Source of the DNA: an uncultured Pseudomonadales bacterium
GTDB taxonomy: Bacteria; Patescibacteriota; Microgenomatia; UBA1400; CAYNMC01
Assembly: GCA_964414895.1 (NCBI GenBank)
Contig: CAYPXO010000002.1
Coordinates: 35,211 to 99,210 of the forward strand
DNA length: 64,000 nucleotides
Direction: 5' to 3'
Shown: positions 19,016-63,341 of the stretch, in pieces
How the letters are laid out: the number at the start of each line of letters is the position of its first letter
How positions within the stretch are numbered: the stretch's first letter is position 1
The notes under the pieces: model-generated
Told to the model about the DNA's origin: nothing
The model's input: the letters and a program-made list of their open reading frames with translations, nothing else
Databases searched by the model: none
Program-made: the position numbers and the translations under genes

Positions 19016-19045
19016 AAATACTGTGTAATTCCTGTTTCATATAAT

Positions 19046-32102: not shown

Positions 32103-33200
<1,098 letters not shown>

Positions 33201-46921: not shown

Positions 46922-48000
46922 TAGACTAAGCTTAAAAAAACCTCCTCATATTTTTTAGCAATCTTATCCCAAGAAAATTTCTCTGCTTGTTTTCTTGGTT
47001 TGTTTTGCCAATTCATCTTTAGAGCCTTTTCTAAAACAGAAGCGTATTTTTGACTCTCTTCCGGATTTTTAATAAACAAGCCGGCTCTGCCAATAATTTC
47101 CCGACGCAGGCTATCATCAGTTGCTACTACCGGCAGTCCAGAAGCCATCGCCTCCAAATAAACAATTCCAAAAGCTTCAGAACTCTCAGAAACTAAAGTA
47201 AACAAATCGCCAGCACGATAATAAGAGGGAATCTCTTTGTGTCTTACTGTCAAGCGCAAAAAGCGATTTTTTCCTAAAAGTTTTCTCCCCAGATTGTCAA
47301 TAAATTCTTCCTGCTTTTTATCACCACTGCCTATCAACAAAAGACTCCCTTTAGACAAACAAGCAACTGCTCTGATAACTGTATCTATTCTTTTATATTC
47401 TTGAAAGGCAGAAACAGTCAAAATCAGCGGTTTTTGCAAGCCTAAAGAAACCCTTTTGCCTTTTTTCCTAAATCTTTTTAAATCAACACCGTCGGGAATT
47501 CTCTTTATTTTTACCCAAGGACAAACTTTTTTTGCCCACAAAAAGCCTCTTTGAGACAAAGCAACAAAAACATCAGGGCGACAGTATAAATTAAAGCGGT
47601 CGTCCCAGCCAATTCCCGAGTGTCCGCCGACTACTATTTTCTTTCTCCAAACAAGACAAAAAAACTTAGTCAACAAAGTCTGCCAGCCTCCATTTAAAGG
47701 CAAAACCAAATCAAACCCGTCTTTCTTTACTTTTCCTAAAGCTTTTAGGCTAAATTGAAAAATAAGGCGAGAGTAGTAATCTAAAAAAAGCTTTCTTTGC
47801 CAACTTTTTGTAAAGTCTTTTGGCCAATCATTTTTTACCTTTATCCTTTTTATTTGATAATTTTTCTTTTCTTTAATCGGCCCTGTTTGAAAAATTACTA
47901 TTTCGTGTTTTTTTGCCAATCTTCTAGCTAAATTATCTACCCAGACCTCCACTCCTCTATTAACAAAACCGGAATAAAAAGACAAAACAGCAATTCTCAT
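46921..48000 (-). CDS. Glycosyltransferase family 4
   Basis: MRIAVLSFYSGFVNRGVEVWV...; C-terminal AFGIVYLEAMASGLPVVATD. Confidence 0.7.
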   Translation of the reverse strand: MRIAVLSFYSGFVNRGVEVWVDNLARRLAKKHEIVIFQTGPIKEKKNYQIKRIKVKNDWPKDFTKSWQRKLFLDYYSRLIFQFSLKALGKVKKDGFDLVLPLNGGWQTLLTKFFCLVWRKKIVVGGHSGIGWDDRFNLYCRPDVFVALSQRGFLWAKKVCPWVKIKRIPDGVDLKRFRKKGKRVSLGLQKPLILTVSAFQEYKRIDTVIRAVACLSKGSLLLIGSGDKKQEEFIDNLGRKLLGKNRFLRLTVRHKEIPSYYRAGDLFTLVSESSEAFGIVYLEAMASGLPVVATDDSLRREIIGRAGLFIKNPEESQKYASVLEKALKMNWQNKPRKQAEKFSWDKIAKKYEEVFLSLV

Positions 48001-49238
48001 GAACTTATTGCCCTAATGATTATCAATAAATTAATTACCACAAAACTAATAGCTGTGGCCAAAGCCGCGCCAGTCGCCGCCATTTTAGGAATAAAAACCA
48101 AATCTAAAGTTATTATCAAAACTACTTGGAAAAAATTAGCCAGAGCAAAAAATTTTGTCTGTCCTTTCCGATACAAAAGATAAGAAGTAAAAGGAACAGA
48201 CATAACAAAAGCAAAAAAACCAAGGCTTAAAATCTGGGTAGGCAAAATCGCTGCCTTGTAAGCCAAACCATAAAAAAAATTAATAAAAAAAGGGGCAAAG
48301 AAAATAAATCCCAAAAGCAAAAAAGCAAAGCCACTTGCCAGCAAAGCCGCTTTTTTAAGATAAGCTTTTGCTTGAATTTCTTTTTTAAAAGAAGCAAAAC
48401 GAGGAGCAAAAACAATCGATAAAACAGAAGAAAACTGATTTACCGGTAGAAAAAAACGATAACCTGCTTGATAAAAACCAACCATCTCCGGACCGGAAAA
48501 CCTCATCAAAAAAAGAGTATCTATTCGACTGTGAATAGCTACCAAAACAAAAGCTAAAGTCAACCATCCTTGAAAAGAAAAGAAGTTCCCTCTTACCTGT
48601 GAGCTAATTCTTGCCTTTAGGAAATCTAAAGAAATCATTTTAATTCCTATCAAAAAAAGAATAAAATTGGCAACAATCTGCAACCAAAAAACATTATTAA
48701 CCGTTAAGCTGCCGGCAAATATAAAAAATAGAAGAAAGGCCAATCTTAACAAGCTCGCTCCTATATCCAAACCAACGCTCTTGACAAATTTTTTTTCTCC
48801 TTGAAAAATCGCCCTAGGTAAACGATAAAGAAAAATAACAAAAACTAAAAAGGAGGCAATTTTTAAAGGTAAACTAATCTCTTGACGCAAAACTAAGGAA
48901 AAACTTCTTGCTAGAGAAAAAAGCAAAAGAAAGAAAAAAGCACCAAGCATTACTTTTAATAAAAAGGCAAACTTAAGATATGATTTCTTTTCCTTTAAAC
49001 CAATAAAGCGGACAATGCTGCTATCCAAAGACAAATCAACAGTATCAGTCACCATAATAACTACCGCCGTTACTGTTGTATAAATGCCTAATTTGGCCGG
49101 GCCCAAAACTCTGGCAATAAGAAAAAAGAACAAAGCAGAAATCAAAGCCCAAATAAGCTGGCCAAAAAAAACTATCCCCGTATCTTTTATTGTTGCCGTT
49201 TTGGAAATTTTCTTTAGCTTTTTAACAAGAAGCTTCAT
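47997..49238 (-). CDS. wzx: Wzx-like oligosaccharide flippase (polysaccharide biosynthesis protein, MOP superfamily)
   Basis: About 12 TM helices; N-terminal KDTGIVFFGQLIWALISALFFFLIARVLGPAKLGIY pattern. Confidence 0.6.
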   Translation of the reverse strand: MKLLVKKLKKISKTATIKDTGIVFFGQLIWALISALFFFLIARVLGPAKLGIYTTVTAVVIMVTDTVDLSLDSSIVRFIGLKEKKSYLKFAFLLKVMLGAFFFLLLFSLARSFSLVLRQEISLPLKIASFLVFVIFLYRLPRAIFQGEKKFVKSVGLDIGASLLRLAFLLFFIFAGSLTVNNVFWLQIVANFILFLIGIKMISLDFLKARISSQVRGNFFSFQGWLTLAFVLVAIHSRIDTLFLMRFSGPEMVGFYQAGYRFFLPVNQFSSVLSIVFAPRFASFKKEIQAKAYLKKAALLASGFAFLLLGFIFFAPFFINFFYGLAYKAAILPTQILSLGFFAFVMSVPFTSYLLYRKGQTKFFALANFFQVVLIITLDLVFIPKMAATGAALATAISFVVINLLIIIRAISS

Positions 49239-49247: not shown

Positions 49248-49607
49248 CTAACTTTTAGCTACACAAATAATGCCTGTCAAAATCAGGCTCAAACCAAACC
49301 AGCGGAATAAAGAAACATCCTCTTTTAAAATCACCTTTGCCAAGATCGTTGTCAACACATAAGAAAAGGCAACCATTGGATAAGCAAAGCTCAAATTTTC
49401 GCGAGACAAAACCACCAGCCAAATAATCAAACTAACCCCATACAAAAAAAGCCCTCCTAAAACAAAAGGGTTGCTAAAAGCACGAAAAAGAGGGCCAAAG
49501 GCTAGACTAATCTCTCCATTTTTGGCCATTCCTATCTTCAAAACGATCTGGCCTATTGCCGCCAAGCCAATAGAAGAAAAGATTAAAGAGTATCTTAAAA
49601 ACTGCAT
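49248..49607 (-). CDS. ArnE/ArnF-like small EamA/SMR-type undecaprenyl-phosphate-aminosugar flippase subunit
   Basis: 119 aa, 4 TM helices; GQIVLKIG...YPMVAFSYVLTTILAKVILKE typical of ArnE/ArnF. Confidence 0.55.
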   Translation of the reverse strand: MQFLRYSLIFSSIGLAAIGQIVLKIGMAKNGEISLAFGPLFRAFSNPFVLGGLFLYGVSLIIWLVVLSRENLSFAYPMVAFSYVLTTILAKVILKEDVSLFRWFGLSLILTGIICVAKS

Positions 49608-49655
49608 TCTAAAAAATTACTAATTACTTCCTTTTTATGTTAATATCATATCATT

Positions 49656-50633
49656 GTGAAGAAACAAAAGGCAAAAAGTTACCTTATCACCGGCGGAGCC
49701 GGTTTTATCGGCTCTTTTTTATGCCAGAAACTAGTCAACAAAGGAGAAAAAGTTGTCTGCCTTGATAATCTTTGTACCGGATCAAAAAAAAACATAAAAT
49801 ATCTTCTTAAGGAAAAAAACTTTACTTTCATCAAAGCCAATGTTTACTCTCAAAAAGAGCTTGGTAAAGTTTCCAATTTTCCCTTTGATTTTATTCTTCA
49901 TTTGGCTTCTCCGGCCGGTCCTAATCCTCAAAGTCCCAAAAGCTACCATCAGCTTTGGCAGGAAACATATTTGGTCAATTCTCTTGGCACTCATCTTTTG
50001 TGCCAGCTGGCAGAAAAAAGAAAAGCCGTTTTTCTTTTCGCCTCAAGCTCAGAAGTTTATGGCAACCCAAAAGTCCATCCGCAAAAAGAGAACTACTTTG
50101 GTAATGTCAATCCCAATGGCCCAAGAGCTATTTATGACGAGGGAAAAAGACTGGGGGAAGCAATTGTTTCCAACTTCACCCGCCACAAAAACCTGAAAAC
50201 TCGAATTGTTCGCATCTTTAACACCTATGGGCCAAGAATGAATGTTGATGACGGCCGAGTTCTTTCCTTATTCGTCTATCAAATTCTTAATAAAAAAGAG
50301 GTTACCATTCATGGTGATGGCCAGCAAACTCGTAGCTTTTGTTATATTGATGACCAAGTAGAAGGAATATTAAAACTTCTTTATTGTAAAAAAGCTAACG
50401 GCTTGCCGGTTAACATCGGCAATCCCCAAGAAATTACTATTCTCAAACTTCTGGAGAAAATAAAAAAACTAACCAAGCTGACTCCAAAAATAAAATACGC
50501 TCCTCTCCCTAAAGATGATCCTAAAAGGAGAAAGCCGGATATTAGCCGCGCCAAAAAACTGCTTGGCTGGCAACCAAAGATTGGTTTGGAGAAAGGCCTA
50601 AGGAGAACCGTTAAGTATTTTCAAAAAAACTAA
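49656..50633 (+). CDS. UDP-glucuronate decarboxylase (UXS/ArnA C-terminal-domain-like SDR)
   Basis: LITGGAGFIGS...DNLCTG...YxxxK region, C-terminal SRAKKLLGWQPK typical of UXS. Confidence 0.75.
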   Translation: MKKQKAKSYLITGGAGFIGSFLCQKLVNKGEKVVCLDNLCTGSKKNIKYLLKEKNFTFIKANVYSQKELGKVSNFPFDFILHLASPAGPNPQSPKSYHQLWQETYLVNSLGTHLLCQLAEKRKAVFLFASSSEVYGNPKVHPQKENYFGNVNPNGPRAIYDEGKRLGEAIVSNFTRHKNLKTRIVRIFNTYGPRMNVDDGRVLSLFVYQILNKKEVTIHGDGQQTRSFCYIDDQVEGILKLLYCKKANGLPVNIGNPQEITILKLLEKIKKLTKLTPKIKYAPLPKDDPKRRKPDISRAKKLLGWQPKIGLEKGLRRTVKYFQKN

Positions 50634-50644
50634 ATCCAGAAATT

Positions 50645-50694
50645 AGAAGAGCGAAGCTATCTATATTTAAAATACATCATGAAGTGAGCTTATT
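50645..50694 (+). repeat. Conserved ~45-nt motif, copy 2 (AGCTRTCTAT.TTTAAAATACATCATGRAGTGAGCT)
   Basis: Near-identical to 43727-43776 in the same orientation. Confidence 0.5.
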
Positions 50695-50822
50695 ACCAAC
50701 TCCCAACATGTCACTGAGTAAATGGTGCGAACGCAATGTTGAGCAAGCGCAGAATCCAAAATAAAGACCAAAATAGCCAGCGCAAGCGCTATTTAAAAAT
50801 ACGATAGCAAGCTCTTTTAAGC

Positions 50823-51782
50823 ATGGAAATTCTCATCACCGGCTGTGCCGGTTTTATCGGCGCTCATTTAAGCAAAAACCTCATTACCAAAAACCATTCT
50901 ATAATCGGCATTGACAACCTAAACAATTACTACAGCCCCCATTTTAAAAAACTCCGTTTAAAAAAACTTGTCGGCAAAGATAAAAATTTCCAATTTATAA
51001 AAGGAGATATTTGTAACAAAAAACTCCTCTATGAAGTTTTTAAGAAAAATAAATTTGATTTGGTAATTCATCTGGCCGCTCAGGCGGGAGTCAGATATTC
51101 CTTAATCAATCCCTTTGTTTACGAGTCAAGCAATCTCAAGGGAACCCTAAATATTTTAGAAATGATAAGACACCACCATAAACCCAGGCTTATCTTTACC
51201 TCCTCCAGCAGTGTTTATGGTAACAACAAAAAGGTTCCCTTTTCTGAAAATGATGCCTGCAATCAGCCAGCTTCTCTTTATTCGGCTAGCAAAAGAGCAG
51301 GAGAATTGATGATCAAAGCCTACCATTACCTTTACGGTATTAAAAGCTGCTGCTTAAGGCTCTTTACTGTTTATGGCCCCTGGGGACGGCCGGACATGGC
51401 TTATTTTATTTTCACCAAAGCTCTTCTGGAAAACAAACCATTAACCGTTTTCCAAAAAGAAACCGCCAGAGACTTTACCTATATTGACGATATTATCAAG
51501 GGAATCACTGCCGCTATGAAAAAAGATTTTAACTTTGAGATTATCAATCTGGGAAACTCCCATCCGATCACTTTAGCCCAACTTATCACTCGCCTAGAAA
51601 AAGAAACCGGTAAAAAAGCAAAAATAAAAATAAAACCGCTTCCTCCTGGTGATGTTAAAAAAACTTACGCGGATATAAACTATGCTAAAAAAAAATTAGG
51701 CTGGAGGCCAAAAACCAAAATAGAAAAGGGCTTAAAAAACTTTGTCGTTTGGTATAGAAAAGAAGGAATAAAAATAAGTTAA
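50823..51782 (+). CDS. NAD-dependent sugar-nucleotide epimerase (UDP-GlcA/UDP-GlcNAc 4-epimerase-like, WbpP/GalE family)
   Basis: ILITGCAGFIGAHL...NLNNYYSPHFKKLRL...SSSSVYG...YSASKRAGE. Confidence 0.7.
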   Translation: MEILITGCAGFIGAHLSKNLITKNHSIIGIDNLNNYYSPHFKKLRLKKLVGKDKNFQFIKGDICNKKLLYEVFKKNKFDLVIHLAAQAGVRYSLINPFVYESSNLKGTLNILEMIRHHHKPRLIFTSSSSVYGNNKKVPFSENDACNQPASLYSASKRAGELMIKAYHYLYGIKSCCLRLFTVYGPWGRPDMAYFIFTKALLENKPLTVFQKETARDFTYIDDIIKGITAAMKKDFNFEIINLGNSHPITLAQLITRLEKETGKKAKIKIKPLPPGDVKKTYADINYAKKKLGWRPKTKIEKGLKNFVVWYRKEGIKIS

Positions 51783-51807
51783 TCTGTGGAAGGAAATCCA
51801 TCTTACT

Positions 51808-52542
51808 CTAAGCGACCCGCGATTGCGTGTCAGCTAGACTATATAAAACTTCCGGTAACTCCTCTTTTTTCATTTTTAGTGCCTTGCCTTTTCCTAAAAA
51901 TTTATATTTCTTAAGTCTATCAATCACCCGTAACTGATGCTGCCAACCACTTCTTTTAAGATGGGTGGCGTGCAAATACCAAGTATCAACAAACTCCAGC
52001 CGAGAGACCAACTCTTGGATTGGCTTACCTTTCAGGCTATAGGCTTCCAGTGGATATTCTCCTTTTACTTGCAAACCATCAATTTTCCTTATTGCCCGGA
52101 TGTTAAGATGGCCTTCCCAAGGTCCTATTTGATATTCTCCCTCGCTTTCAGGCGAATAATGATAAACATCGCTAATACAATTCCTAGTTTTATTTACTAA
52201 AGCAATTGTCTGTTTCTTGGCTTTCTTCATCGCTTTAATTAAATAAACTAAATTTCTCTTAGGCCAAATCTCATCTCCATCAACAAGTAAAAACCAGGGT
52301 GTCTTTGTTTCTTTGAGCTGCTGGTTGCGCAACTCAACTAATTGTTTTCTATTAACTTTTCCACATTGTTTAAATTTAATTTTATTTGATTTCATTGATT
52401 CTATTATCTTTACTGTCTTGTCTGTTGAGCCGGTATCCCAAACAAGCAACTCCTCGGCATAATCCAAAACCGAAAGCAAAGCCGATTTTATAAACTGCTC
52501 TTCATTCTTAACAACAGTGTGAACCGTAAATTTTACAGACAT
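51808..52542 (-). CDS. Glycosyltransferase family 2-like protein
   Basis: VHTVVKNEEQFIKSAL...LVWDTGSTDKT...LLVDGDE (DXD). Confidence 0.5.
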   Translation of the reverse strand: MSVKFTVHTVVKNEEQFIKSALLSVLDYAEELLVWDTGSTDKTVKIIESMKSNKIKFKQCGKVNRKQLVELRNQQLKETKTPWFLLVDGDEIWPKRNLVYLIKAMKKAKKQTIALVNKTRNCISDVYHYSPESEGEYQIGPWEGHLNIRAIRKIDGLQVKGEYPLEAYSLKGKPIQELVSRLEFVDTWYLHATHLKRSGWQHQLRVIDRLKKYKFLGKGKALKMKKEELPEVLYSLADTQSRVA

Positions 52543-52562
52543 TTTTGTCGTAAATATCAATT

Positions 52563-54059
52563 TTAAAATTCAATCTCATATGCTTTACTAGAATTATCCA
52601 AAATATAAACCCGCCAGCCTTCAAAATCTTTTTTGTCAATTATCGGCAAAACTGGCTGATAATCCTTATGGGACCAATTGTCAACAAAAAGAACCACAAT
52701 TTTGGGAAAAACCTCAGCCGGCTTTTCCCGATAAAGCCAAAAGAAATCCGGATCAATAAAACTGATTGCCGGCGGGCTTTCTTTTATTTCAAACAAATAA
52801 CGAAGCCCATTATAGCGAAAACATTTGCTCTTAACATCTAAAGCAAAATCTCTGTCTTTTAATTTTTCGATTGTCCAATTGACTGCTTCTTTAGTACTAG
52901 CCAGTCCATAGGCATTTCTGGCCTTAAAAACCAAACCTATATTGGAAAAAACGAAAAAAATCAGCAAAAAAAATCCTATTGCCCAAAATCGAACAAAAAC
53001 TTTGGCCGTAATTACCGCAAAAACAGGCAAAAGCCCGGCCAGATAATGCTCATAAATAGGCTTTCCCAGCAAACCTCCATAAACTAAAAGTCCTAAAAGG
53101 TAAATCATCAAAAGTCGGGCGAAATAAATCTCGCCAGACTTTCCAGCTCTCTTTTTGCCAAAATAGTAAACAGTCAAAAGCACTAAAGCCAAAAACTGCA
53201 GAAAAACCGGCTGGCCAAACTGCCTTATAAAAGCTACTGGCGAGCAATAAGTATGAAAAAAACTAACCTCTTTCTGTGGAGAATACCAAAATCGAGATAG
53301 GCTCCGAGTCGGCAGAAGGAAGGCAGCCAAAAAGCTCTTTGGATCAAGACTTACCTCTCCTTTCTTTTCAAAGAACTGCAAAATTCCTTGGACGTTGCTT
53401 CCCTGATGGCGAAGGTCAAAGAAAATCAAAGGGGTTAAAAAGAGCGCCCCAAAAATAAGAACAAAAACTAAGCCTTTGCCAAAAATTTCTCTTTCTTCCC
53501 ATAAAGAATAACCGGTTAGCAAAAGTAAAACTAAATTGGAAGGGTCAGCCGTTATCGCAAAAGCCAAAAGCAAACCCAGCCAAAACCAACGCCAGTAAAG
53601 GTTTTTCTTTACCAGTAAAAAAACGACTAAAATTGTAAATAACGGATTTAAGCTTAAAGGCCACCAGTGCCGGTCAAAAAAAACTGCTGTAAAAGAAACT
53701 CCATAAACCAAAGACGTCACCAATCCCATCCTGGTATTGTGAAACTCTTTGGCTAAACAAAAAAGGGCAAAAACAGTCATCACTCCAAAGACTGCTGTTA
53801 ACCAACCCCAAACTAAGGGATTAAAATCAGTCAAAGGTAAAAAGAATGCCGAAAAATAATAAAAGTAAGGAGGAAGATGAAAACCCAAAGAACTAATTCC
53901 ACCAATCAAAAAGGGATGTTTTAAAGCAAACAGTCCCCAACCGCGAAAGGCCAAAAGAGCCTCATCCATCATAAAATAAAAAAGCTCCTCAAGCCTAAAA
54001 ACTCTCAAAAAAAAAGCAAGGCCCAATATTATCCAAAGAAAAAAAGGGGCTTTTCTCAT
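52563..54059 (-). CDS. GT-C fold membrane glycosyltransferase (ArnT/PMT-like)
   Basis: Polytopic; N-terminal FYFMMDEALLAFRGW motif region. Confidence 0.5.
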   Translation of the reverse strand: MRKAPFFLWIILGLAFFLRVFRLEELFYFMMDEALLAFRGWGLFALKHPFLIGGISSLGFHLPPYFYYFSAFFLPLTDFNPLVWGWLTAVFGVMTVFALFCLAKEFHNTRMGLVTSLVYGVSFTAVFFDRHWWPLSLNPLFTILVVFLLVKKNLYWRWFWLGLLLAFAITADPSNLVLLLLTGYSLWEEREIFGKGLVFVLIFGALFLTPLIFFDLRHQGSNVQGILQFFEKKGEVSLDPKSFLAAFLLPTRSLSRFWYSPQKEVSFFHTYCSPVAFIRQFGQPVFLQFLALVLLTVYYFGKKRAGKSGEIYFARLLMIYLLGLLVYGGLLGKPIYEHYLAGLLPVFAVITAKVFVRFWAIGFFLLIFFVFSNIGLVFKARNAYGLASTKEAVNWTIEKLKDRDFALDVKSKCFRYNGLRYLFEIKESPPAISFIDPDFFWLYREKPAEVFPKIVVLFVDNWSHKDYQPVLPIIDKKDFEGWRVYILDNSSKAYEIEF

Positions 54060-54592
54060 TTCTTTTTTATTTTTGCCGGCACACCAACAGCCAAAGAGTC
54101 GGCAACAACATCTTTAGTAACTACCGCTCCTGCTCCAATCATCGCTCTTTTACTTATTTTAAGACCGGGTAAAATTATCGCTCCAAGCCCAATAAAAGAG
54201 CCACTTTCAATAACAGTCTTTTTGACAAACTTGGGATATTTGTCCACCAAAGGATGGTTGGAAAATCCAACTGAGAAATGAGAAATCAGAGAAGCCCGAG
54301 CAGAAACAGTAATCTGATCTTGCAAAACTATCTCTCCTGCCAGATCAAAAAGTGCTCCCCGACCCAAGAAAGACTCTCTCCCTACCTGAAATCCAGCTAA
54401 ACCAGTCCTGTCAAGATTAATAAAATCAATCCTGTCGACAACACATCTCTTCCCAATTTTTGCTCCCCCTAATTTTAGCCAAAAAACCCTTAAAGGCGAA
54501 AAAGGCAAAAAGTCAAAGACCATTTGCCAAAAAGAAAAAATAAAATGGCGAAAGAGTCTTTTAAAACCAATTTCTCTCAAGAGCCTTTTCAT
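54056..54592 (-). CDS. Hexapeptide-repeat (LbH) acetyltransferase
   Basis: IGAGAVVTKDVVADSLAVGVPAKI plus hexapeptide repeats. Confidence 0.7.
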   Translation of the reverse strand: MKRLLREIGFKRLFRHFIFSFWQMVFDFLPFSPLRVFWLKLGGAKIGKRCVVDRIDFINLDRTGLAGFQVGRESFLGRGALFDLAGEIVLQDQITVSARASLISHFSVGFSNHPLVDKYPKFVKKTVIESGSFIGLGAIILPGLKISKRAMIGAGAVVTKDVVADSLAVGVPAKIKKK

Positions 54593-54751
54593 AAAGAGAA
54601 AATTGCGAAAGTAGTCTCCGAGCTACTGAGCAATTTGACTATAATAATTTTAAACGAAAAGCAAGATACTGGCACGAACATTATTTAAAAATATAGCTCT
54701 TTAAAAACAAAATGGCGGGTTTTTAAAACCTTCTCTTTTTTATTTCTCATT

Positions 54752-54854
54752 TGTCATTCTCGACCTGAAAGCGAAAGCGCTTCAAGATCGGGAATCTATA
54801 AAAATATTAAAGCTGAATTATTTGTATAGATTCTGAATCAAGTTCAGAATGACA
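54752..54854. repeat. Class I nested-palindrome (REPIN-like) element, copy E
   Basis: TGTCATTCTCGACC...GGGAATCTATAAAAATATTAAAGCTGAATTATTTGTATAGATTCTGAATCAAGTTCAGAATGACA. Confidence 0.75.
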
Positions 54855-54905
54855 AAGGTGACATTTTGTTTTAACATTGCTATAGGACGCCAAGCTCTCA
54901 AAGAA

Positions 54906-55616
54906 CTAAAGATTAAAACGAAAGCTTATTAAATTTCTCAAATATCTAAAGCTGTCAGGAATCAATCTAACGGTTGAGGTCTTGTCAAACCGCCTTACAA
55001 AAGCAACCGGAATTTCCCTAACTTCAAGTTTTGCCCTGTAGGCCCTAGCCATTATTTCCGTATCCCAAAACCAAGCCGGATAAACAGAGTTTTCGAAAAT
55101 CTTTTTGCTGGTTTTTTTTCTAAAAAACTTATAACCGGCTTCCGTATCTTTAAAAGGCAATCCCAAAAAGATCTTTCTCAACAAAATATAGCCTTTACTG
55201 CTAATCCAGCGAGCAAGGGTAGCCAGCCTAAAATCGTATATCCGCCAAGCAATAGCCACATCAGCACCCTTCTCAATCGTCTGGATAAACTTGGACAAAT
55301 ACCACTCACCTATTTCCAAATCAACATCAATAAAGCCAACCATCTTCCCATGAGCCTTTAAAAATCCCTCAACTACTGTCTTGCCTCTTCCTTTGTTTTT
55401 CCAATGAAAAAAGGCCCGCAGGTTTTTTCTGGGATATTTTTTCAGTGCCTCTTTTATAAGTTTTTTGGTTTTATCTTTCGATTTATCATCAATAAAAATT
55501 ATCTCCCAGGTATAGCTTGTTTCATCCAAAACCTCTATTATCCTGGCAAGAGAATCAACAAAAATCTCTCCTTCATTGTAACAAGGTAAAATCAGAGAAA
55601 AATCAAACTTGCTCAT
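54906..55616 (-). CDS. Polyprenyl-phosphate sugar synthase, GT2 (ArnC/DPM1/GtrB-like)
   Basis: SLILPCYNE...FIDDKSKDKT...DVDL motifs; 236 aa soluble GT2 typical of the Und-P-sugar-forming enzymes. Confidence 0.75.
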   Translation of the reverse strand: MSKFDFSLILPCYNEGEIFVDSLARIIEVLDETSYTWEIIFIDDKSKDKTKKLIKEALKKYPRKNLRAFFHWKNKGRGKTVVEGFLKAHGKMVGFIDVDLEIGEWYLSKFIQTIEKGADVAIAWRIYDFRLATLARWISSKGYILLRKIFLGLPFKDTEAGYKFFRKKTSKKIFENSVYPAWFWDTEIMARAYRAKLEVREIPVAFVRRFDKTSTVRLIPDSFRYLRNLISFRFNL

Positions 55617-55663
55617 AATCTTTATCTTACAATATTGCCCTATTTTAGTCTATAATAGTAACA

Positions 55664-56827
55664 GTGAGAAAAAATTTTTTAATCTTTGGCCAGCCGAGAT
55701 TTTTTAAAGAAGAGCTAACGGGAATCTTGGAAACGCTGCGCTCCGGTTGGTGGGGAACCGGACCAAAAACACAAAAATTCCAAAAACTTTTTGCTAAATA
55801 TACTAAAGCCAAATACGCTCTGGGTTTAAATTCCTGCACTGCCGCTTTAGAGCTGGCCTTGGATGTTTTAAAGATTGGCCCTGGCGATGAGGTTATCACC
55901 ACTCCAATTACTTTTGTTTCTACTGTTAATGTTATTGTCCACCGTGGTGCCAAACCGGTTTTTGCTGACATCAATCCTTCTACTTGGAACATCAATCCCC
56001 GTAAGATTGAAAAAAAGATAACCAAAAAAACCAAAGCAATTATCCCCGTTCATCTCCATGGCCGACCATGTCAAATGGATGAAATCTTAAAACTTGCCAA
56101 AAAACATAAGCTCTTTGTCGTTGAAGACGCTGCCCATGCACTGGAGGCTTGGCATAAAGGTAAAAAAATCGGCTCAATTTCCGATTTTACCGCTTTTTCT
56201 TTTTATGTCACCAAAAATCTGGCTACCGGCGAAGGCGGGATGTTAACGACCAACAATAAAACTTGGTTTAGGCAAGCAACCATAAAAAGCCTGCACGGCA
56301 TTTCTGCCGATGCCTGGAAAAGATATTCGGCCAGCGGCTTTAAACCTTATGAAGCCGTTTATGCCGGCTATAAATTCAACATGACTGATCTGCAGGCCTC
56401 TTTGGGTATTCCTCAGCTTAAAAGAGTCAACAAAAACTTAAAAATTCGCCAAAAGTATTGGCAAGTTTATATGCGAGCTTTTGAAAACCTAAAGGAAATT
56501 AGCTTGCCAGCGCCGATAGAAAAAAATACCATCCATGGTATGCACATCTTCGCTATTTTATTGAACCTAAAAAGACTAAAAATCAACCGTAATCAATTTA
56601 TAGAAGCTCTGCAAAAAGAAAACATTGGCGCCGGTATCCACTTTACTGCCGTGCATCTGCACAAGTTTTACCGGCAAAGATTTGGTTTTAAAAAAGGAGT
56701 TCTACCGGTTGCCGAAAGGATCGGCAACCGCCTTGTTTCCCTCCCCTTCTACCCCCACATGACTAAAAAAGATCTAAACGATGTTATCGCTGCTGTTCAT
56801 AAAATCATCCGTCTTTATAAAAAGTAA
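55664..56827 (+). CDS. ArnB-like UDP-4-amino-sugar aminotransferase (DegT family)
   Basis: IFGQPRFFKEELTGILETLRSGWWGTGPKTQKFQKLFAKYT...NSCTAALELAL...GDEVITTPITFVSTVN aligns closely with ArnB/perosamine synthase N-termini. Confidence 0.8.
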   Translation: MRKNFLIFGQPRFFKEELTGILETLRSGWWGTGPKTQKFQKLFAKYTKAKYALGLNSCTAALELALDVLKIGPGDEVITTPITFVSTVNVIVHRGAKPVFADINPSTWNINPRKIEKKITKKTKAIIPVHLHGRPCQMDEILKLAKKHKLFVVEDAAHALEAWHKGKKIGSISDFTAFSFYVTKNLATGEGGMLTTNNKTWFRQATIKSLHGISADAWKRYSASGFKPYEAVYAGYKFNMTDLQASLGIPQLKRVNKNLKIRQKYWQVYMRAFENLKEISLPAPIEKNTIHGMHIFAILLNLKRLKINRNQFIEALQKENIGAGIHFTAVHLHKFYRQRFGFKKGVLPVAERIGNRLVSLPFYPHMTKKDLNDVIAAVHKIIRLYKK

Positions 56828-56883: not shown

Positions 56884-58662
56884 CTAGGAAGTTTTTTTAA
56901 AGATCAAAAAAGCAAGGCAAGAAAAAGCAGCAATGGAAAGCAAGTCGGCAAATAAACGCAACTTTGTCTCTCCAAATTTCAACTTAACTTGAAATTCTCC
57001 TGCCGGTGCAGAAAACAAAACCAAACCTTTGGATTTTTTAAAGTCCTTTAGATTTTCTTTTACTTCTTCCGTTAATTCTCTTCCATCAACAAACAACCGC
57101 CAGCCAGGATAATAATAGTTGTGAATCAAAATTTCTGATTTTTGTCTGCAAGCAAGATTAAAAGAAATTAAATTGCTTTTTTGTAAAAGTTTTTCCACTC
57201 GGCAATCACCCTGGTTAATTTCAACTTTTTGCTCTGGCGGTAGCTGGTATGGTTTTTTTCTTGCCCAGCGAGGAATATATTCATTCCAACCGCTGCCTAC
57301 CCAATAATAAGTCTTAAAATAGTTATCCGGATAGTCAATGGTGTCATTAATACGCAAATGATTGCGATTACCATAAAAAGCAAGAATTAAAAGCATCATA
57401 GAAGCAAAAATTAAAAACTTTCTCTCTTTTAAATTAGCAATCAGCCAACCAGACAAAAAAGCGGCTGTAAAAACGGAAAGAGCCAAAAAGCGCCAAGGAG
57501 TATCTACCTTTTGTAGTGGAGAAAAAAGAACCCAAATCGGCTTGGAAATCTCAAGCATTAAAAAGATTGAAAGAAAAAAATTAAAGAGAAGAATAATAAT
57601 AAGGCTTAAGTTTTTTCGCTTATTTTTCTTTTTTATTATAAAGTATATATAGTATACAGGAGTACACTTAATAATAAGAAAAATGCTTAGAAAAACTGCT
57701 AGCCATTGGGCAATTCCAATTCTTAAGGTCAGATCATTACCAAAGCCCGGCGCTCCATAGCCCCAAGGCGAATAGAGGAGTTTTTTAAAAGAAACAAATT
57801 GGTCATAATTGGCAGAAACAATCTCTGTGTAGTAAGTGTAAGCAGCTTCCCAAACGGCAGGGATTAAATAAAAACTACAAATTCCCACCGCCAGCAAAAT
57901 GGCAACCAGCCACCGTTTTATTATCCTTTTTTTCTTTTTTGAATAACTAACTAGCCAAAAAGAGAATAAAAACCAAAGAGGAAAGAAAATAACCAAAGTT
58001 ATCAAATGAGAAAGAATCAAACCAGCCAAAGCAAAAACAAGAGCGACAAAATTTTTCTTTGTCGATTTTTTGGAAAACCGAAAGACAAAAAGAAAAACTA
58101 AAGGAACAAAAGCAAAGCCAACTGCTTCCCCTAGAGAGGCAGTCACAAAAATCTTGACAAAGCGATAAGGAGCCCAAGACCAAAGAATGCTAGAGACAAA
58201 AGCGGCCCAACTGTTCTTAAAAAGCTCTCTTGCCAAAAAATACATTCCCAAAGCAGAAGTAAAATAGGAAAAAACAATAACCAGCTTAACCGATTCGGCC
58301 AAATTAAAACCAGCAAAATGAAAGCCTTCGGCCAGCCAGTAAGGCAAAGGATAGGCAAAAATAAAAACCGGGTAACCTCTAGTGCCGGAAAACTGGCCGG
58401 CCCAGCGAGGAGGAAACTGGCCTTCTTTTAAAATACGATCAAATTCATAAAGCCTGGCCAGGTGTGACTGTCCATCATGGGAAGTATAAAATTTCGGCCC
58501 CCAAAGATCTTTAAGAGCAAAAAGAGATATAACAAAAATTGCAACAATCAACAATAAATTTATTCCTTTTTTCACTTTTTTAAGGTATAGATAAAACAAA
58601 TAATAATTATTGTTCGAGCCCTGCCTGCCGGACGGGCAGGCAGGCAGGCGTGTCGAGAACAT
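56884..58662 (-). CDS. Large polytopic membrane protein, GT-C-like (YfhO/ArnT-like); the N-terminus reads through a class II element
   Basis: More than 12 TM helices, HDGQSHLARLYEFDR motif; the first ~20 codons (MFSTRLPACPSGRQGS) are element sequence. Confidence 0.4.
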   Translation of the reverse strand: MFSTRLPACPSGRQGSNNNYYLFYLYLKKVKKGINLLLIVAIFVISLFALKDLWGPKFYTSHDGQSHLARLYEFDRILKEGQFPPRWAGQFSGTRGYPVFIFAYPLPYWLAEGFHFAGFNLAESVKLVIVFSYFTSALGMYFLARELFKNSWAAFVSSILWSWAPYRFVKIFVTASLGEAVGFAFVPLVFLFVFRFSKKSTKKNFVALVFALAGLILSHLITLVIFFPLWFLFSFWLVSYSKKKKRIIKRWLVAILLAVGICSFYLIPAVWEAAYTYYTEIVSANYDQFVSFKKLLYSPWGYGAPGFGNDLTLRIGIAQWLAVFLSIFLIIKCTPVYYIYFIIKKKNKRKNLSLIIILLFNFFLSIFLMLEISKPIWVLFSPLQKVDTPWRFLALSVFTAAFLSGWLIANLKERKFLIFASMMLLILAFYGNRNHLRINDTIDYPDNYFKTYYWVGSGWNEYIPRWARKKPYQLPPEQKVEINQGDCRVEKLLQKSNLISFNLACRQKSEILIHNYYYPGWRLFVDGRELTEEVKENLKDFKKSKGLVLFSAPAGEFQVKLKFGETKLRLFADLLSIAAFSCLAFLIFKKTS

Positions 58663-60180: not shown

Positions 60181-60291
60181 CGTCATTCTGAGTCCCACAT
60201 TTTGCGGGACGAAGAATCCCCTTCGGAATTATTCAGACTTCTAGGGAGATCCTTCGCTCCGCTCAGGATGACATAGAATTTCAGAATGACA
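60181..60291. repeat. Class I-family element, copy F (variant internal hairpins)
   Basis: CGTCATTCTGAGtcccacattttGCGGGACGAAGAATCCCCttcgg...CTCAGGATGACAtagaatttCAGAATGACA; overlaps the stop of 60241-61896. Confidence 0.65.
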
Positions 60292-63339: not shown

Positions 63340-63341
63340 GT

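What the first reader, a model, noticed from the sequence alone, without database searches (positions are those of the whole stretch)
49248..56827. Arn-like aminopentose lipid-carrier module in an organism with no sign of lipid A, plus six paralogous GT-C transferases
The interval carries a UXS/ArnA-C-like UDP-GlcA decarboxylase (49656-50633), an ArnB-like aminotransferase (55664-56827), an ArnC/DPM1-like GT2 (54906-55616), an ArnE/F-like 4-TM flippase (49248-49607) and two LbH acetyltransferases in place of a formyltransferase. Six ArnT/PMT/YfhO-like polytopic proteins surround it (36505, 44524, 52563, 56884, 58716, 60241). In Gram-negatives this chemistry decorates lipid A. Here the acceptor must be something else (cell-wall glycopolymer, lipoteichoic-acid-like polymer, or protein O-glycosylation), and the multiplicity of GT-C paralogs suggests several acceptors or sugars.
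Basis: partly seen in the sequence, partly recalled or inferred. Interest (0 to 1): 0.55.

Follow-up and report, generated by a model that had tools for sequence, protein, structure and literature searches.

The report
Arn-like sugar-lipid module in CPR bacterium
An uncultured Patescibacteria (CPR) bacterium, a group reported to lack lipid A, carries a conserved gene set that probably loads an amino-pentose sugar onto a lipid carrier, flips it across the membrane and attaches it to a surface polymer; this is a new variant of a well-known type of system, not a new kind.

Summary
49656-50633 is a UXS-type UDP-glucuronate decarboxylase. 55664-56827 is a DegT aminotransferase whose best solved relatives are ArnB. 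54906-55616 is a TM-less DPMS/GtrB/ArnC-type polyprenyl-phosphate sugar synthase. 49248-49607 is a 4-TM ArnE/F-like flippase. Six polytopic proteins belong to the GT-C superfamily, and two were confirmed by structure prediction.

Corrections:
- Only one LbH acetyltransferase lies in the interval.
- A UDP-GlcA 4-epimerase (50823-51782) was missed.
- The six GT-C proteins fall into three Pfam families; only the DUF2142 pair are clear paralogs.
- There is no ArnT, ArnD or formyltransferase.

The organism is a Microgenomates-group CPR bacterium. The module sits in a 33-kb Wzx/Wzy glycan locus. The module keeps its gene order in relatives at 50-75% protein identity. A more distant clade has a co-directional GT2→aminotransferase→UXS arrangement, and an aminotransferase lies within 400 bp of the GT2 in 23 of 37 loci.

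Best reading (about 0.55): a three-component extracytoplasmic glycosylation system that delivers a 4-amino-4-deoxypentose to a wall glycopolymer. The identity of the sugar, the role of the LbH protein and the acceptor are inferred, not shown.

The parts
49248..49607 (-). Small 4-TM EamA-half membrane protein, ArnE/ArnF-like putative polyprenyl-P-sugar flippase. It is encoded by a single gene, so probably works as a homodimer. It is the first gene of an operon with the Wzx flippase.
   Evidence: Pfam EamA E 9e-6. NCBIfam ArnF 54 bits and ArnE 47 bits, below cut-offs. 4 TM helices predicted. hhalign of the family gives 97.3% to ArnE and 93.1% to ArnF. 54-68% identical orthologues sit at the same position in L070, L071 and L072.
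49656..50633 (+). UXS-type UDP-glucuronate decarboxylase, the source of UDP-4-keto-pentose and/or UDP-xylose. It diverges from the flippase gene across a 48-bp spacer.
   Evidence: Human UXS1 279 bits, E 6e-82, full length. Motifs SSSEVYG, YDEGKR and QTRSF. 25% identity to the ArnA C-domain.
50823..51782 (+). UDP-glucuronate 4-epimerase-type SDR, giving UDP-GalA.
   Evidence: Best PDB hits are 5u4q (306 bits) and the B. cereus UDP-GlcA 4-epimerase 6zl6 (182 bits). SSSSVYG / YSASK motifs. It is always paired with the UXS gene in relatives.
51808..52560 (-). GT2 glycosyltransferase, 250 aa, generic GT-A with no TM. Last gene of the LbH-GT-C-GT2 operon.
   Evidence: Pfam PF00535 E 6e-15. Only weak PDB hits to GmaR and SunS. 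57-69% identical orthologues in L070, L071 and L072.
52563..54059 (-). GT-C fold glycosyltransferase (PMT_2 family, 498 aa). Of the three GT-C families counted, the one that co-occurs most often with the GT2 synthase.
   Evidence: PMT_2 28 bits, above cut-off. AF2 model pLDDT 93.6. Significant Foldseek hits are all GT-C enzymes: PglB, ArnT, STT3, Pmt4, AftA. Invariant D32 and near-invariant E33 after TM1. Present in 18 of 25 related loci.
54056..54592 (-). Left-handed beta-helix (hexapeptide) acetyltransferase, 178 aa. O- versus N-acetyl specificity is unresolved. It overlaps the GT-C gene by 4 bp.
   Evidence: Hexapep E 3e-7. NCBIfam: NeuD/PglB/VioB 59 bits (C-terminal part only), WcaF family 50 bits (nearly full length). 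PDB hits are a mix of N- and O-acetyltransferases. It is the most constant partner of the GT2, in 21 of 25 loci.
54906..55616 (-). Polyprenyl-phosphate sugar synthase-type GT2 (DPMS/GtrB/ArnC class), 236 aa, without TM helices.
   Evidence: PF00535 E 3e-24. P. furiosus DPMS 62 bits over the full length, GtrB 38 bits, ArnC 36 bits. hhalign 97.5% to the ArnC N-domain. No TM predicted. An exact copy lies on Logan contig SRR14802572_35402.
55664..56827 (+). DegT/ArnB-like PLP sugar 4-aminotransferase. It diverges from the GT2 synthase gene across a 47-bp spacer.
   Evidence: PF01041 E 3e-124. ArnB structures are the top four PDB hits. NCBIfam ArnB 341 bits (cut-off 631) and PseC 326 bits. 38% identity to E. 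coli ArnB. Catalytic Lys conserved.
56884..58662 (-). YfhO/PTPS_related-type GT-C glycosyltransferase. The ORF is 592 aa, but the gene is called as 555 aa, so it probably starts near 58551.
   Evidence: PF10131 36 bits. Homologues also carry PF09586 YfhO and are named 'YfhO family protein'. AF2 model pLDDT 93.5. Foldseek hits are GT-C only: STT3, DPY19, PglB, AftD, ArnT. Invariant H-D after TM1.
58716..60167 (-). DUF2142 (+PMT_2) polytopic membrane protein, GT-C superfamily.
   Evidence: DUF2142 68 bits, PMT_2 29 bits. PDE motif after TM1. Paralog of 60241-61896 (28% identity, E 1e-36).
60241..61896 (-). DUF2142 polytopic membrane protein, GT-C superfamily. A core member of the conserved neighbourhood.
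   Evidence: DUF2142 57 bits. hhalign 90-93% to the PMT_2-type proteins. Present in 16 of 25 related loci, including the rearranged clade.
47997..49238 (-). Wzx-type MOP flippase, immediately downstream of the small flippase.
   Evidence: Polysacc_synt_3 / Polysacc_synt E 3e-20. MOP flippase family 58 bits.
44524..46011 (-). PMT_2-type GT-C glycosyltransferase, 495 aa.
   Evidence: PMT_2 40 bits. hhalign 96.8% to the 52563-54059 family. LDE motif after TM1.
36505..37965 (-). PMT_2-type GT-C glycosyltransferase, 486 aa.
   Evidence: PMT_2 33 bits. hhalign 93.9% to the 52563-54059 family and 93% to DUF2142.
37958..39637 (-). Wzy_C-type polymerase/ligase. Context: part of the Wzx/Wzy pathway of the same locus.
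   Evidence: PF04932 33 bits. 11 predicted TM helices.
30367..30996 (-). Small polyprenyl-phosphate glycosyl-phosphotransferase, the initiating enzyme of the glycan locus.
   Evidence: Bac_transf E 5e-60. EPS_sugtrans 241 bits.
40602..41198 (-). Second LbH acetyltransferase, WcaF-type. It lies outside the finding's interval.
   Evidence: Hexapep E 1e-14. WcaF family 103 bits.

Best explanation
The interval is the core of a three-component extracytoplasmic glycosylation system: a cytoplasmic polyprenyl-phosphate sugar synthase, a small flippase, and GT-C transferases. It is embedded in a roughly 33-kb Wzx/Wzy-type surface-glycan locus (28403-61896) of a Microgenomates-group Patescibacteria (CPR) bacterium.

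**Proposed route**
1. UDP-GlcA, whose dehydrogenase is not encoded in the window, is oxidatively decarboxylated by the UXS-type enzyme (49656-50633).
2. The UDP-4-keto-pentose intermediate or product is transaminated by the ArnB-like aminotransferase (55664-56827) to a UDP-4-amino-4-deoxypentose. This would be Ara4N-like if the stereochemistry follows ArnB.
3. The sugar is possibly acetylated by the LbH enzyme (54056-54592).
4. The TM-less DPMS/ArnC-type GT2 (54906-55616) transfers the sugar to polyprenyl phosphate.
5. The single ArnE/F-like 4-TM protein (49248-49607), probably as a homodimer, flips the lipid-linked sugar.
6. GT-C enzymes transfer it outside the membrane. The leading candidate is 52563-54059, with the DUF2142 pair and the YfhO-like protein as further candidates. 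The acceptor is most likely the locus's own Wzx/Wzy polysaccharide or another wall polymer.
7. The co-located UDP-GlcA 4-epimerase supplies UDP-GalA for other transferases of the locus.

**Shown:** gene families, the GT-C fold of two proteins, catalytic motifs, and conserved gene linkage.

**Inferred:** release of the 4-keto-pentose by the UXS, the sugar used by the GT2, flippase activity, which GT-C uses which donor, and the acceptor.
For: **Enzyme classes**
- UXS: 279 bits to hUXS1.
- Aminotransferase: the four top PDB hits are ArnB, and it is 38% identical to E. coli ArnB.
- GT2: best solved match is DPMS over the full length, followed by GtrB and ArnC.
- Flippase: hhalign 97% to ArnE and 93% to ArnF.

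**GT-C fold**
- AF2 models have pLDDT 93.6 and 93.5. Their significant Foldseek hits are exclusively GT-C enzymes.
- Every one of the six has an acidic motif after TM1.

**Linkage**
- The same gene order at 50-75% protein identity in L070/L100 and L071, and most of it in L078, L084, L085, L089, L090, L093 and L094.
- In a distant clade (GT2 43-48% identical) the genes are rearranged into a co-directional GT2→AT→UXS(→GAE) arrangement. DUF2142, LbH, a GTC_498-like gene and Wzx lie on the opposite strand.
- An aminotransferase lies within 400 bp of the GT2 in 23 of 37 loci with at least 1.5 kb on both sides.
- It does so in 41 loci spread over many subclades of the GT2 family.
- AT and UXS-like genes overlap (ATGA) in an independent Patescibacteria contig, L001, and in Omnitrophota L030.

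**Chemistry and organism**
- No 4,6-dehydratase or other keto-sugar source is present in the 64-kb window.
- There is precedent. The decarboxylases CalS9 and AtmS9 deliver 4-keto-pentose to aminotransferases, and the product outcome cannot be read from the active site (PMC10338323).
- The organism is CPR, and CPR are reported to lack lipid A synthesis (PMC10221324).
Against: - The decarboxylase is far closer to human UXS1, which mainly releases UDP-xylose, than to ArnA (25% identity).
- The aminotransferase is as similar to a PseC-context aminotransferase (37%, 265 bits) as to ArnB (38%, 270 bits). The aminotransferases of the rearranged clade are only about 35% identical to it. Specificity is therefore not established.
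- Several close relatives keep GT2-LbH-GT-C, and UXS/GAE/flippase, with no aminotransferase in roughly 20 kb (L072, L077, L081, L082, L088). Their GT2 is just as similar, at 62-65% identity.
- The GT2's best solved match is a mannose-P-dolichol synthase, and a GDP-mannose pyrophosphorylase is encoded in the locus (30993-32120). A lipid-linked hexose is therefore possible.
- No ugd is present in the window.
- No formyl- or deformyl-handling enzymes are present.
- No biochemical data exist.
Confidence: 0.55

Rival explanations
1. The lipid-linked sugar is a hexose. The GT2 (54906-55616) would make polyprenyl-P-mannose or -glucose, and the GT-C enzymes would add hexose side chains. UXS, the 4-epimerase and the aminotransferase would only supply soluble UDP-sugars (UDP-Xyl, UDP-GalA, an amino sugar) to the cytoplasmic GT2/GT4 enzymes that build the Wzx/Wzy repeat unit.
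For: - The best solved relative of the GT2 is P. furiosus Dol-P-Man synthase (62 bits, full length), against 36 bits for ArnC at the N-terminus only.
- ManC (GDP-Man synthesis) is in the locus.
- The UXS is about 50% identical to a true UDP-xylose synthase.
- GT2-LbH-GT-C persists in relatives without a nearby aminotransferase.
- At least eight conventional GT2/GT4 genes in the locus need soluble donors.
Against: - The aminotransferase is immediately adjacent to this particular GT2 in two different gene arrangements and in many subclades. This includes co-directional GT2→AT→UXS arrangements, which mirror arnB-arnC-arnA.
- Sequence similarity among polyprenyl-P sugar synthases is a poor guide to sugar specificity (established knowledge).
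Confidence: 0.25
2. Most or all of the GT-C-like proteins are not monosaccharide transferases. They would be polymerases or ligases acting on polyprenyl-PP-linked oligosaccharides, like the lactococcal WpsI/WpsJ proteins (DUF2142) or Wzy/WaaL. The 'six transferases' would then reflect assembly and attachment of one or more polymers rather than decoration.
For: - DUF2142 proteins in lactococcal and streptococcal cell-wall polysaccharide loci are assigned as the WpsI polymerase or WpsJ transferase (PMC12599335 and PMC9746298).
- The DUF2142 and GTC_498-like genes sit next to Wzx in both gene arrangements.
- Only one clear polyprenyl-P sugar synthase-type GT2 was recognised for six GT-C proteins.
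Against: - A dedicated small ArnE/F-like flippase and a DPMS-type GT2 are conserved in the module. Both make sense only if a lipid-linked monosaccharide is used outside the membrane.
- YfhO and PMT_2 relatives in Firmicutes use C55-P-monosaccharides (PMC8035078).
- A separate Wzy_C protein is already present.
Confidence: 0.12
3. The acceptors are proteins, through PMT-like O-glycosylation of surface or S-layer/pilin proteins, rather than a glycopolymer.
For: - Three of the GT-C proteins hit PMT_2, the protein O-mannosyltransferase-related family.
- Pmt4 is among the structural matches.
- The GT2 weakly hits PgfS and AglJ, which are protein-glycosylation GT2s.
Against: - The genes are interleaved with a complete Wzx/Wzy/PGT polysaccharide pathway.
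- PMT_2 proteins in Gram-positives mostly glycosylate teichoic acids and wall polysaccharides (PMC8035078).
- No MIR or other peptide-binding domains were seen in the models.
Confidence: 0.06
4. It is a genuine Arn pathway that modifies lipid A in a diderm organism.
For: An ArnB-like aminotransferase, an ArnE/F-like flippase and GT-C enzymes are present.
Against: - There is no ArnT, ArnD or formyltransferase homologue.
- All NCBIfam Arn equivalog cut-offs are missed by a wide margin.
- The host is Microgenomates-type CPR, with a FemAB-type peptidoglycan gene in the window. CPR are reported to lack lipid A synthesis (PMC10221324).
Confidence: 0.02

Closest known systems
Arn (PmrHFIJKLM) pathway of E. 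coli/Salmonella: ArnA-ArnB-ArnC-ArnD-ArnE/F-ArnT, adding L-Ara4N to lipid A
   Same: - The overall logic is the same: UDP-GlcA decarboxylation, 4-transamination, transfer to polyprenyl-P by a GT2, flipping by a 4-TM EamA/SMR-like protein, and transfer by a GT-C enzyme.
- The aminotransferase is 38% identical to ArnB.
- The flippase family is homologous to ArnE and ArnF.
- The aminotransferase-GT2 adjacency matches arnB-arnC.
   Different: - The decarboxylase is UXS-type (25% identical to ArnA), not fused to a formyltransferase.
- There is no formyltransferase and no ArnD deformylase.
- The GT2 lacks the C-terminal TM helices and is closer to DPMS.
- One flippase gene is present instead of two.
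- No ArnT orthologue is present; the GT-C proteins are PMT_2, DUF2142 and YfhO types.
- The host lacks lipid A, so the acceptor differs.
- An LbH acetyltransferase and a UDP-GlcA 4-epimerase are part of the module.
Multi-component transmembrane glycosylation systems of Gram-positive bacteria (CsbB/GtcA/YfhO; GtlA/GtcA/GtlB; L. lactis CsdAB, CsdCD and CsdEF with CflA; GacI-L) (PMC8035078)
   Same: - A monoderm host.
- A GT-A synthase, a small flippase, and PMT_2- or YfhO-type GT-C enzymes.
- Several GT-C enzymes sharing one flippase.
- Acceptors that are teichoic acids or wall polysaccharides.
- Location in or near cell-wall polysaccharide loci.
   Different: - Known systems carry Glc, Gal or GlcNAc taken directly from common UDP-sugars. 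Here, dedicated UXS/aminotransferase tailoring genes are linked.
- The flippase is EamA/ArnE-F-type, not GtrA-type.
- The GT2 has no membrane anchor.
- The host is a CPR bacterium.
4-aminopentose branch of natural-product sugar biosynthesis (CalS9/AtmS9 UDP-GlcA decarboxylases with PLP aminotransferases) (PMC10338323)
   Same: A decarboxylase that is not fused to a formyltransferase hands a UDP-4-keto-pentose to a DegT-family aminotransferase. No formyltransferase is involved.
   Different: The products there are transferred by soluble GT-B enzymes to aglycones. No lipid carrier, flippase or GT-C is involved.
Mycobacterial PpgS/Rv3779 system, adding GalN to arabinogalactan through polyprenyl-P-GalNAc (own knowledge; the NCBIfam PpgS model hit is weak)
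   Same: A short polyprenyl-P amino-sugar synthase (the NCBIfam PpgS profile is 226 positions long; absence of TM helices is from own knowledge) and a GT-C enzyme that decorates a wall polysaccharide with an amino sugar in a bacterium without LPS.
   Different: - A different sugar and different precursor route.
- Only a 20-bit match to the PpgS model.
- Different GT-C family.
Lactococcal/streptococcal WpsI/WpsJ DUF2142 proteins in cell-wall polysaccharide loci (PMC12599335, PMC9746298)
   Same: DUF2142 polytopic proteins encoded next to Wzx-type flippases and GT2 genes in wall-polysaccharide loci.
   Different: They are proposed to polymerise or attach PP-linked oligosaccharides. Here there are two tandem copies next to a YfhO-like protein and an aminotransferase, and their function is untested.

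Membership tests
Arn (L-Ara4N lipid A modification) pathway | ArnA C-domain-type UDP-GlcA oxidative decarboxylase that releases UDP-4-keto-pentose | tested here: inconclusive
   A UDP-GlcA decarboxylase is present, but it is UXS-type: 279 bits to hUXS1, 25% identity to ArnA, and NCBIfam ArnA 92 bits against a cut-off of 777. The product partition cannot be predicted from sequence (PMC10338323).
Arn (L-Ara4N lipid A modification) pathway | ArnB UDP-Ara4N:oxoglutarate aminotransferase | tested here: inconclusive
   ArnB structures are the four best PDB hits, and identity to E. coli ArnB is 38%. However, the NCBIfam ArnB score is 341 bits against a cut-off of 631, with PseC at 326 bits. The protein is equally similar to a PseC-context aminotransferase.
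Arn (L-Ara4N lipid A modification) pathway | N-formyltransferase (ArnA N-domain) and ArnD deformylase | tested here: not met
   tblastn with E. coli ArnA residues 1-300 and ArnD finds nothing in the window. No formyltransferase or polysaccharide-deacetylase Pfam hits appear in any ORF scanned.
Arn (L-Ara4N lipid A modification) pathway | ArnC: GT2 with C-terminal TM helices, specific for UDP-Ara4FN | tested here: not met
   The GT2 at 54906-55616 scores 47 bits against a cut-off of 529. It aligns to ArnC only over about 120 N-terminal residues, has no TM helix, and is closer to DPMS.
Arn (L-Ara4N lipid A modification) pathway | ArnE/ArnF heterodimeric flippase | tested here: inconclusive
   Homology is clear (hhalign 97% and 93%). 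Only one gene is present, and the scores of 54 and 47 bits are below the equivalog cut-offs of 99 and 92.
Arn (L-Ara4N lipid A modification) pathway | ArnT (GT83) transferring to lipid A phosphate | tested here: not met
   No BLAST hit to E. coli ArnT at E<0.1. hhalign probabilities to E. coli ArnT are at most 1.4%. ArnT is only one of many GT-C structural matches.
Arn (L-Ara4N lipid A modification) pathway | Lipid A as the acceptor | not testable with these tools
   Only 64 kb of the genome is available, and it contains no lpx genes. The taxonomy is Microgenomates-type CPR, and the literature reports that CPR lack lipid A synthesis (PMC10221324).
Three-component (GT-A synthase / flippase / GT-C) extracytoplasmic glycosylation system | Polyprenyl-phosphate sugar synthase of the DPMS/GtrB/ArnC GT2 class | tested here: met
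   Full-length match to PfDPMS, then to GtrB and ArnC. hhalign 97.5% to ArnC. DxD (D97-V-D99) and the downstream DTEAGYKFF segment are invariant among orthologues.
Three-component (GT-A synthase / flippase / GT-C) extracytoplasmic glycosylation system | Small (3-4 TM) candidate flippase genetically linked to the system | tested here: met
   119 aa, 4 TM helices, EamA/ArnE-F-like. The position next to UXS and Wzx is conserved in L070, L071, L072, L089, L090 and L093. Flipping activity itself is not testable here.
Three-component (GT-A synthase / flippase / GT-C) extracytoplasmic glycosylation system | GT-C fold transferase with an acidic catalytic motif in the first external loop | tested here: met
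   Two high-confidence models match only GT-C enzymes. D32/E33 and H25/D26 are invariant or nearly so. The other four have Pfam GT-C-type hits, hhalign links and DE motifs.
Three-component (GT-A synthase / flippase / GT-C) extracytoplasmic glycosylation system | Transfer of a monosaccharide from polyprenyl-P to an extracytoplasmic acceptor | not testable with these tools
   This requires biochemistry or genetics.
UXS (UDP-xylose synthase) family of extended SDRs | Full-length homology with the catalytic S/T-E, YxxxK and Arg residues | tested here: met
   alignment (residues 6-324 against hUXS1), with SSSEVYG, YDEGKR and QTRSF present.
Wzx/Wzy-dependent polysaccharide locus (context) | Initiating PGT, MOP flippase, Wzy-type polymerase and multiple GT2/GT4 genes in one cluster | tested here: met
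   Bac_transf 30367-30996, Wzx 47997-49238, Wzy_C 37958-39637, and at least eight GT2/GT4 genes.

The most novel reading that the evidence does not exclude
Microgenomates-type CPR bacteria, which have no outer membrane or lipid A, install a 4-amino-4-deoxypentose (Ara4N-like, possibly acetylated) on a cell-wall glycopolymer. They would do so through an Arn-analogous pathway assembled largely from non-orthologous parts: a UXS-type decarboxylase instead of ArnA, a TM-less DPMS-type synthase instead of ArnC, a single ArnE/F-like flippase, and PMT_2/DUF2142/YfhO GT-C enzymes instead of ArnT, with no formyl cycle. To my knowledge this would be the first lipid-carrier-delivered aminopentose modification outside LPS. 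It would also be a surface-charge or masking mechanism in epibiotic ultra-small bacteria.
Probability: 0.4. Interest if true: 0.6.

Novelty: new variant of a known kind. Interest (0 to 1): 0.42.

Why it matters
Almost nothing is known experimentally about the surface glycans of CPR/Patescibacteria, although their epibiotic lifestyle depends on cell-surface contact.

A conserved gene module found here predicts a specific, testable chemistry: UDP-GlcA to UDP-aminopentose to polyprenyl-P-aminopentose to a wall polymer. The GT2 family query found 486 relatives in metagenomes.

If confirmed, Ara4N-type modification, best known as the polymyxin-resistance modification of lipid A, would have a counterpart in bacteria without lipid A. 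That counterpart would be built from different enzyme lineages and would work without the formylation/deformylation cycle.

It would also assign functions to DUF2142, PTPS_related/YfhO and PMT_2 proteins, which are very common in CPR genomes.

If the sugar turns out to be a hexose, the locus is simply another example of the widespread three-component decoration systems.

Tried and rejected
- **Exact-sequence look-up of the aminotransferase** found nothing, probably because the gene is called from a later start.
- **Sequence search of PDB** found nothing with the PMT_2 GT-C or the flippase. Structure prediction plus Foldseek was needed for the GT-C.
- **dTDP-glucose 4,6-dehydratase reading of 49656-50633.** This was the top NCBIfam hit (136 bits), which would have made the pathway a 4-amino-4,6-dideoxyhexose route. 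It was rejected because of the S-E (not D-E) motif and the 279-bit match to hUXS1.
- **Special ArnT likeness of GTC_498.** Rejected: PglB, STT3 and ArnT score alike.
- **The LbH as an N-acetyltransferase substituting for ArnA formyltransferase.** Left open. The hits are mixed, and the gene persists where no aminotransferase is nearby.
- **ugd, ArnD, ArnT and formyltransferase.** Searched in the window and in about 150 loci. The results were none in the window, ugd in a few loci only, and one Fmt/ArnA-N-like hit in L090 that may be housekeeping Fmt.
- **Rfam and tRNA scans** of the window were empty.
- **Promoter and terminator scans** were uninformative: 36 promoter-like sites against 33 expected, and 27 terminator-like sites against 15 expected, with none at the obvious operon ends.
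- **Literature.** No paper pairs 'Candidate Phyla Radiation' with 4-amino-4-deoxy-L-arabinose, or Patescibacteria with YfhO. The 15 listed of the 35 papers holding 'Patescibacteria' and 'ArnT' looked irrelevant by title and abstract.

Full report
**1. What is in the sequence**

The window has 36% GC, and almost all genes lie on the minus strand.

- Positions 1-28 kb carry a cell-division and peptidoglycan cluster: ftsZ, ftsA, murG, ftsW, mraY, a FemAB-type gene, Mur ligases, murA, murB, a PBP, mraW and mraZ. An aminoacyl-tRNA synthetase and recO follow.
- Positions 28403-61896 are an uninterrupted surface-glycan locus. It holds a DUF4012 protein, a small Bac_transf phosphoglycosyl transferase, ManC, at least eight GT4/GT2 genes, a Wzy_C protein, a Wzx flippase, a methyltransferase, two LbH acetyltransferases and the genes of the finding.
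- A split transketolase follows the locus.

**2. Checking the individual claims**

*Decarboxylase, 49656-50633.*
- It is 279 bits (E 6e-82) from human UDP-xylose synthase over its full length.
- It carries the S-E, YxxxK and Arg signatures of UDP-GlcA decarboxylases.
- The nominally best NCBIfam hit, dTDP-glucose 4,6-dehydratase, is far below its cut-off and is contradicted by the motif.
- Identity to the ArnA C-domain is only 25%.

*Aminotransferase, 55664-56827.*
- It is a complete DegT-family enzyme with the catalytic lysine.
- The four best solved relatives are ArnB proteins (291-248 bits; the next family scores 220 bits).
- It is 38% identical to E. coli ArnB.
- It misses the NCBIfam ArnB equivalog cut-off (341 against 631) and scores almost the same on the PseC model.
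- It is equally similar to an aminotransferase that sits in a PseB/NeuB context in L001.

*GT2, 54906-55616.*
- It aligns over its whole length with Pyrococcus Dol-P-Man synthase, and at the N-terminus with GtrB and ArnC.
- It has no TM helix.

*Flippase, 49248-49607.* It is a 119-aa, 4-TM EamA half, homologous to ArnE and ArnF.

- 50823-51782 is most similar to UDP-GlcA 4-epimerases.
- A second, generic GT2 lies at 51808-52560.
- Only one LbH acetyltransferase (54056-54592) lies in the interval. Its matches mix sugar N-acetyltransferases (short C-terminal stretch) with WcaF/serine O-acetyltransferase types (longer stretch).
- The other LbH (40602-41198) is WcaF-like and lies 13 kb away.

**3. 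The six polytopic proteins**
- Three hit PMT_2, two hit DUF2142 and one hits PTPS_related, all above the gathering scores.
- Homologues of the PTPS_related protein also carry the YfhO domain and are named YfhO-family proteins.
- Only the DUF2142 pair are evident paralogs (28% identity). The PMT_2 proteins resemble each other only in the N-terminal 90-130 residues.
- Profile comparison links PMT_2 and DUF2142 at 90-97% probability. The YfhO-like protein is linked weakly, at 31-63%.
- AlphaFold2 models of 52563-54059 (pLDDT 93.6) and of the YfhO-like protein (pLDDT 93.5) match only GT-C enzymes at significant E-values: PglB, STT3, AglB, ArnT, Pmt4, DPY19, AftA/AftD and ALG9. Neither shows a special affinity to ArnT.
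- All six carry an acidic motif just after TM1. In the two aligned families it is invariant or nearly so (D32/E33; H25/D26).
- 'Six GT-C-superfamily transferases' is therefore right. 'Six paralogs' is too strong.

**4. The organism**
- FtsZ is about 70% identical to proteins of Candidatus Beckwithbacteria, Microgenomates and Chisholmbacteria.
- Homologues of the GT-C and YfhO-like proteins come from Beckwithbacteria, Gottesmanbacteria, Daviesbacteria and 'Patescibacteria group' genomes.
- The closest aminotransferase in GTDB representative genomes is from a Patescibacteria MAG.
- CPR bacteria are reported to lack lipid A/LPS synthesis and to have a Gram-positive-like envelope (PMC10221324).
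- The FemAB gene in the window fits that picture.
- The rest of this genome could not be examined.

**5. Related loci**
- Two relatives keep essentially the whole arrangement at 50-75% protein identity. They are L070/L100 (GCA_964398365.1) and L071. The order is DUF2142, DUF2142, YfhO-like, [AT], GT2, LbH, GT-C, GT2, [GAE, UXS], flippase, Wzx, GT4, GT2, PMT_2, methyltransferase.
- A Beckwithbacteria genome (L072) keeps GT2-LbH-GT-C and [GAE, UXS]-flippase-Wzx. It has no aminotransferase within about 20 kb.
- A metagenome scan with the GT2 family found 486 relatives, and 80 loci were kept.
- In the window's clade, the GT2-LbH-GT-C trio is constant, and the aminotransferase is divergently adjacent in most loci.
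- In a more distant clade (GT2 43-48% identical) the order changes to a co-directional, tightly spaced GT2→aminotransferase→UXS, usually followed by the 4-epimerase. DUF2142, LbH, a GTC_498-like protein and Wzx lie on the other strand.
- Of 25 loci with at least 5 kb on both sides:

| Partner gene | Loci out of 25 |
|---|---|
| LbH | 21 |
| Aminotransferase | 19 |
| GTC_498-like | 18 |
| UXS | 16 |
| 4-epimerase | 16 |
| DUF2142 | 16 |

- An aminotransferase lies within 400 bp of the GT2 in 23 of 37 loci with at least 1.5 kb on both sides.
- It does so in 41 loci spread across many subclades of the GT2 family. These loci are not independent, since some are near-duplicates.
- Independently, the aminotransferase's closest homologue in L001 overlaps a UXS-like gene by 4 bp. 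An Omnitrophota contig (L030) shows ugd-like-SDR-AT-UXS.

**6. Interpretation**

The conserved linkage of a DPMS/ArnC-class GT2, a DegT aminotransferase and a UDP-GlcA decarboxylase survives rearrangement. The module also includes an ArnE/F-like flippase and GT-C enzymes. Together these support an Arn-analogous route to a lipid-linked 4-aminopentose.

The UXS-like nature of the decarboxylase is not a decisive objection:
- The decarboxylases CalS9 and AtmS9 supply 4-keto-pentose to aminotransferases.
- EvdS6 releases the keto sugar first.
- The authors could not explain the product outcome from active-site structures (PMC10338323).
- No other keto-sugar-forming enzyme is present in 64 kb.

Against the model:
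- The aminotransferase's specificity is not established.
- Some close relatives have no aminotransferase in the retrieved flanks, yet their GT2 is equally similar.
- The GT2 resembles a mannose-P-dolichol synthase most, and ManC is in the locus.
- No ugd is in the window.

I put the aminopentose-on-lipid model at about 0.55 and the broader three-component reading at about 0.85.

The LbH enzyme is a core member of the module, but it does not depend on a nearby aminotransferase. Its proposed role as a stand-in for the formyltransferase is therefore doubtful. O-acetylation of the sugar or polymer is at least as likely.

The acceptor is most simply the polysaccharide made by the surrounding Wzx/Wzy genes. 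This follows the model of side-chain addition in Gram-positive wall polysaccharides and teichoic acids, where several GT-A/GT-C pairs share one flippase (PMC8035078). The DUF2142 proteins may instead act like the lactococcal WpsI/WpsJ polymerase or transferase (PMC12599335 and PMC9746298).

**7. Comparison with known systems and novelty**

By membership this is not an Arn pathway:
- The formyltransferase, ArnD and ArnT are absent.
- The ArnC-like and ArnE/F-like proteins are related only at family level.
- The decarboxylase belongs to another subfamily.

It works like the Arn pathway and like the Gram-positive three-component systems. It differs from both in four ways:
- UXS plus aminotransferase tailoring is combined with a TM-less synthase.
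- There is a single EamA-type flippase.
- The GT-C enzymes are not ArnT-like.
- The host is a CPR bacterium.

No paper in the searchable library links CPR with Ara4N or with YfhO-type systems. It is therefore best classed as a new variant of a known kind. It is moderately interesting mainly because it gives a concrete, testable prediction about the unexplored surface chemistry of CPR bacteria.

Noticed in passing
window 39591-40496 (-): GT2 homology (LTLTIIIPSFNTKEYLEDC...) extends about 90 bp upstream of the first ATG/GTG/TTG of ORF 39591-40403. No canonical start codon lies in frame after the preceding stop. The gene may start at a rare codon (ATT around 40508, preceded by AGGA), or it may have lost its start.
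   Followed up: partly
window 10032-11291 (-): A second DegT-family aminotransferase (419 aa, matched in two stretches, suggesting an insertion). It sits inside the mur/dcw cluster between a FemAB-type gene (8740-9762) and a Mur ligase (11320-12771), which is an unusual position for a sugar aminotransferase.
   Followed up: no
window 1003-1638 (-): An IS200/Y1-type transposase-like gene (211 aa) lies immediately downstream of ftsZ.
   Followed up: no
window 18138-19115 (-): A GlmU-like protein that matches only the uridylyltransferase half of the GlmU profile (197 bits, residues 79-323). It has an N-terminal extension of about 78 aa and no acetyltransferase LbH domain.
   Followed up: no
window 28403-30373 (-): A large DUF4012 protein (656 aa) is the first gene of the glycan locus, directly upstream of the small phosphoglycosyl transferase. 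Its function is unknown. It may be an export or chain-length component.
   Followed up: no
window 24067-25608 (-): A Glu/Leu/Phe/Val dehydrogenase-family protein of 513 aa. The matched dimerisation domain begins only around residue 159, implying a long N-terminal extension, and it scores weakly.
   Followed up: no
window 62617-63842 (+): Transketolase split into separate N-terminal (240 aa) and pyrimidine-binding (at least 166 aa) genes.
   Followed up: no
L072 9584-10004 (Ca. Beckwithbacteria GW2011_GWB1_47_15): The LbH acetyltransferase orthologue is called as two fragments (50 and 93 aa) between the GT2 and the GT-C. This may be a pseudogene or an assembly frameshift. The same locus lacks the aminotransferase.
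   Followed up: no
L001 3239-10993: In the Patescibacteria contig with the closest aminotransferase, the AT-UXS pair is followed by a PseB-like dehydratase, a second aminotransferase and a NeuB-type synthase. This looks like a nonulosonic (pseudaminic-like) acid pathway, and GT-C proteins lie in the same locus.
   Followed up: partly
L090 406-1098: A formyltransferase-fold gene (27% identical to ArnA residues 47-274) lies about 9 kb from the GT2 module. It could be housekeeping Fmt or a sugar N-formyltransferase.
   Followed up: no
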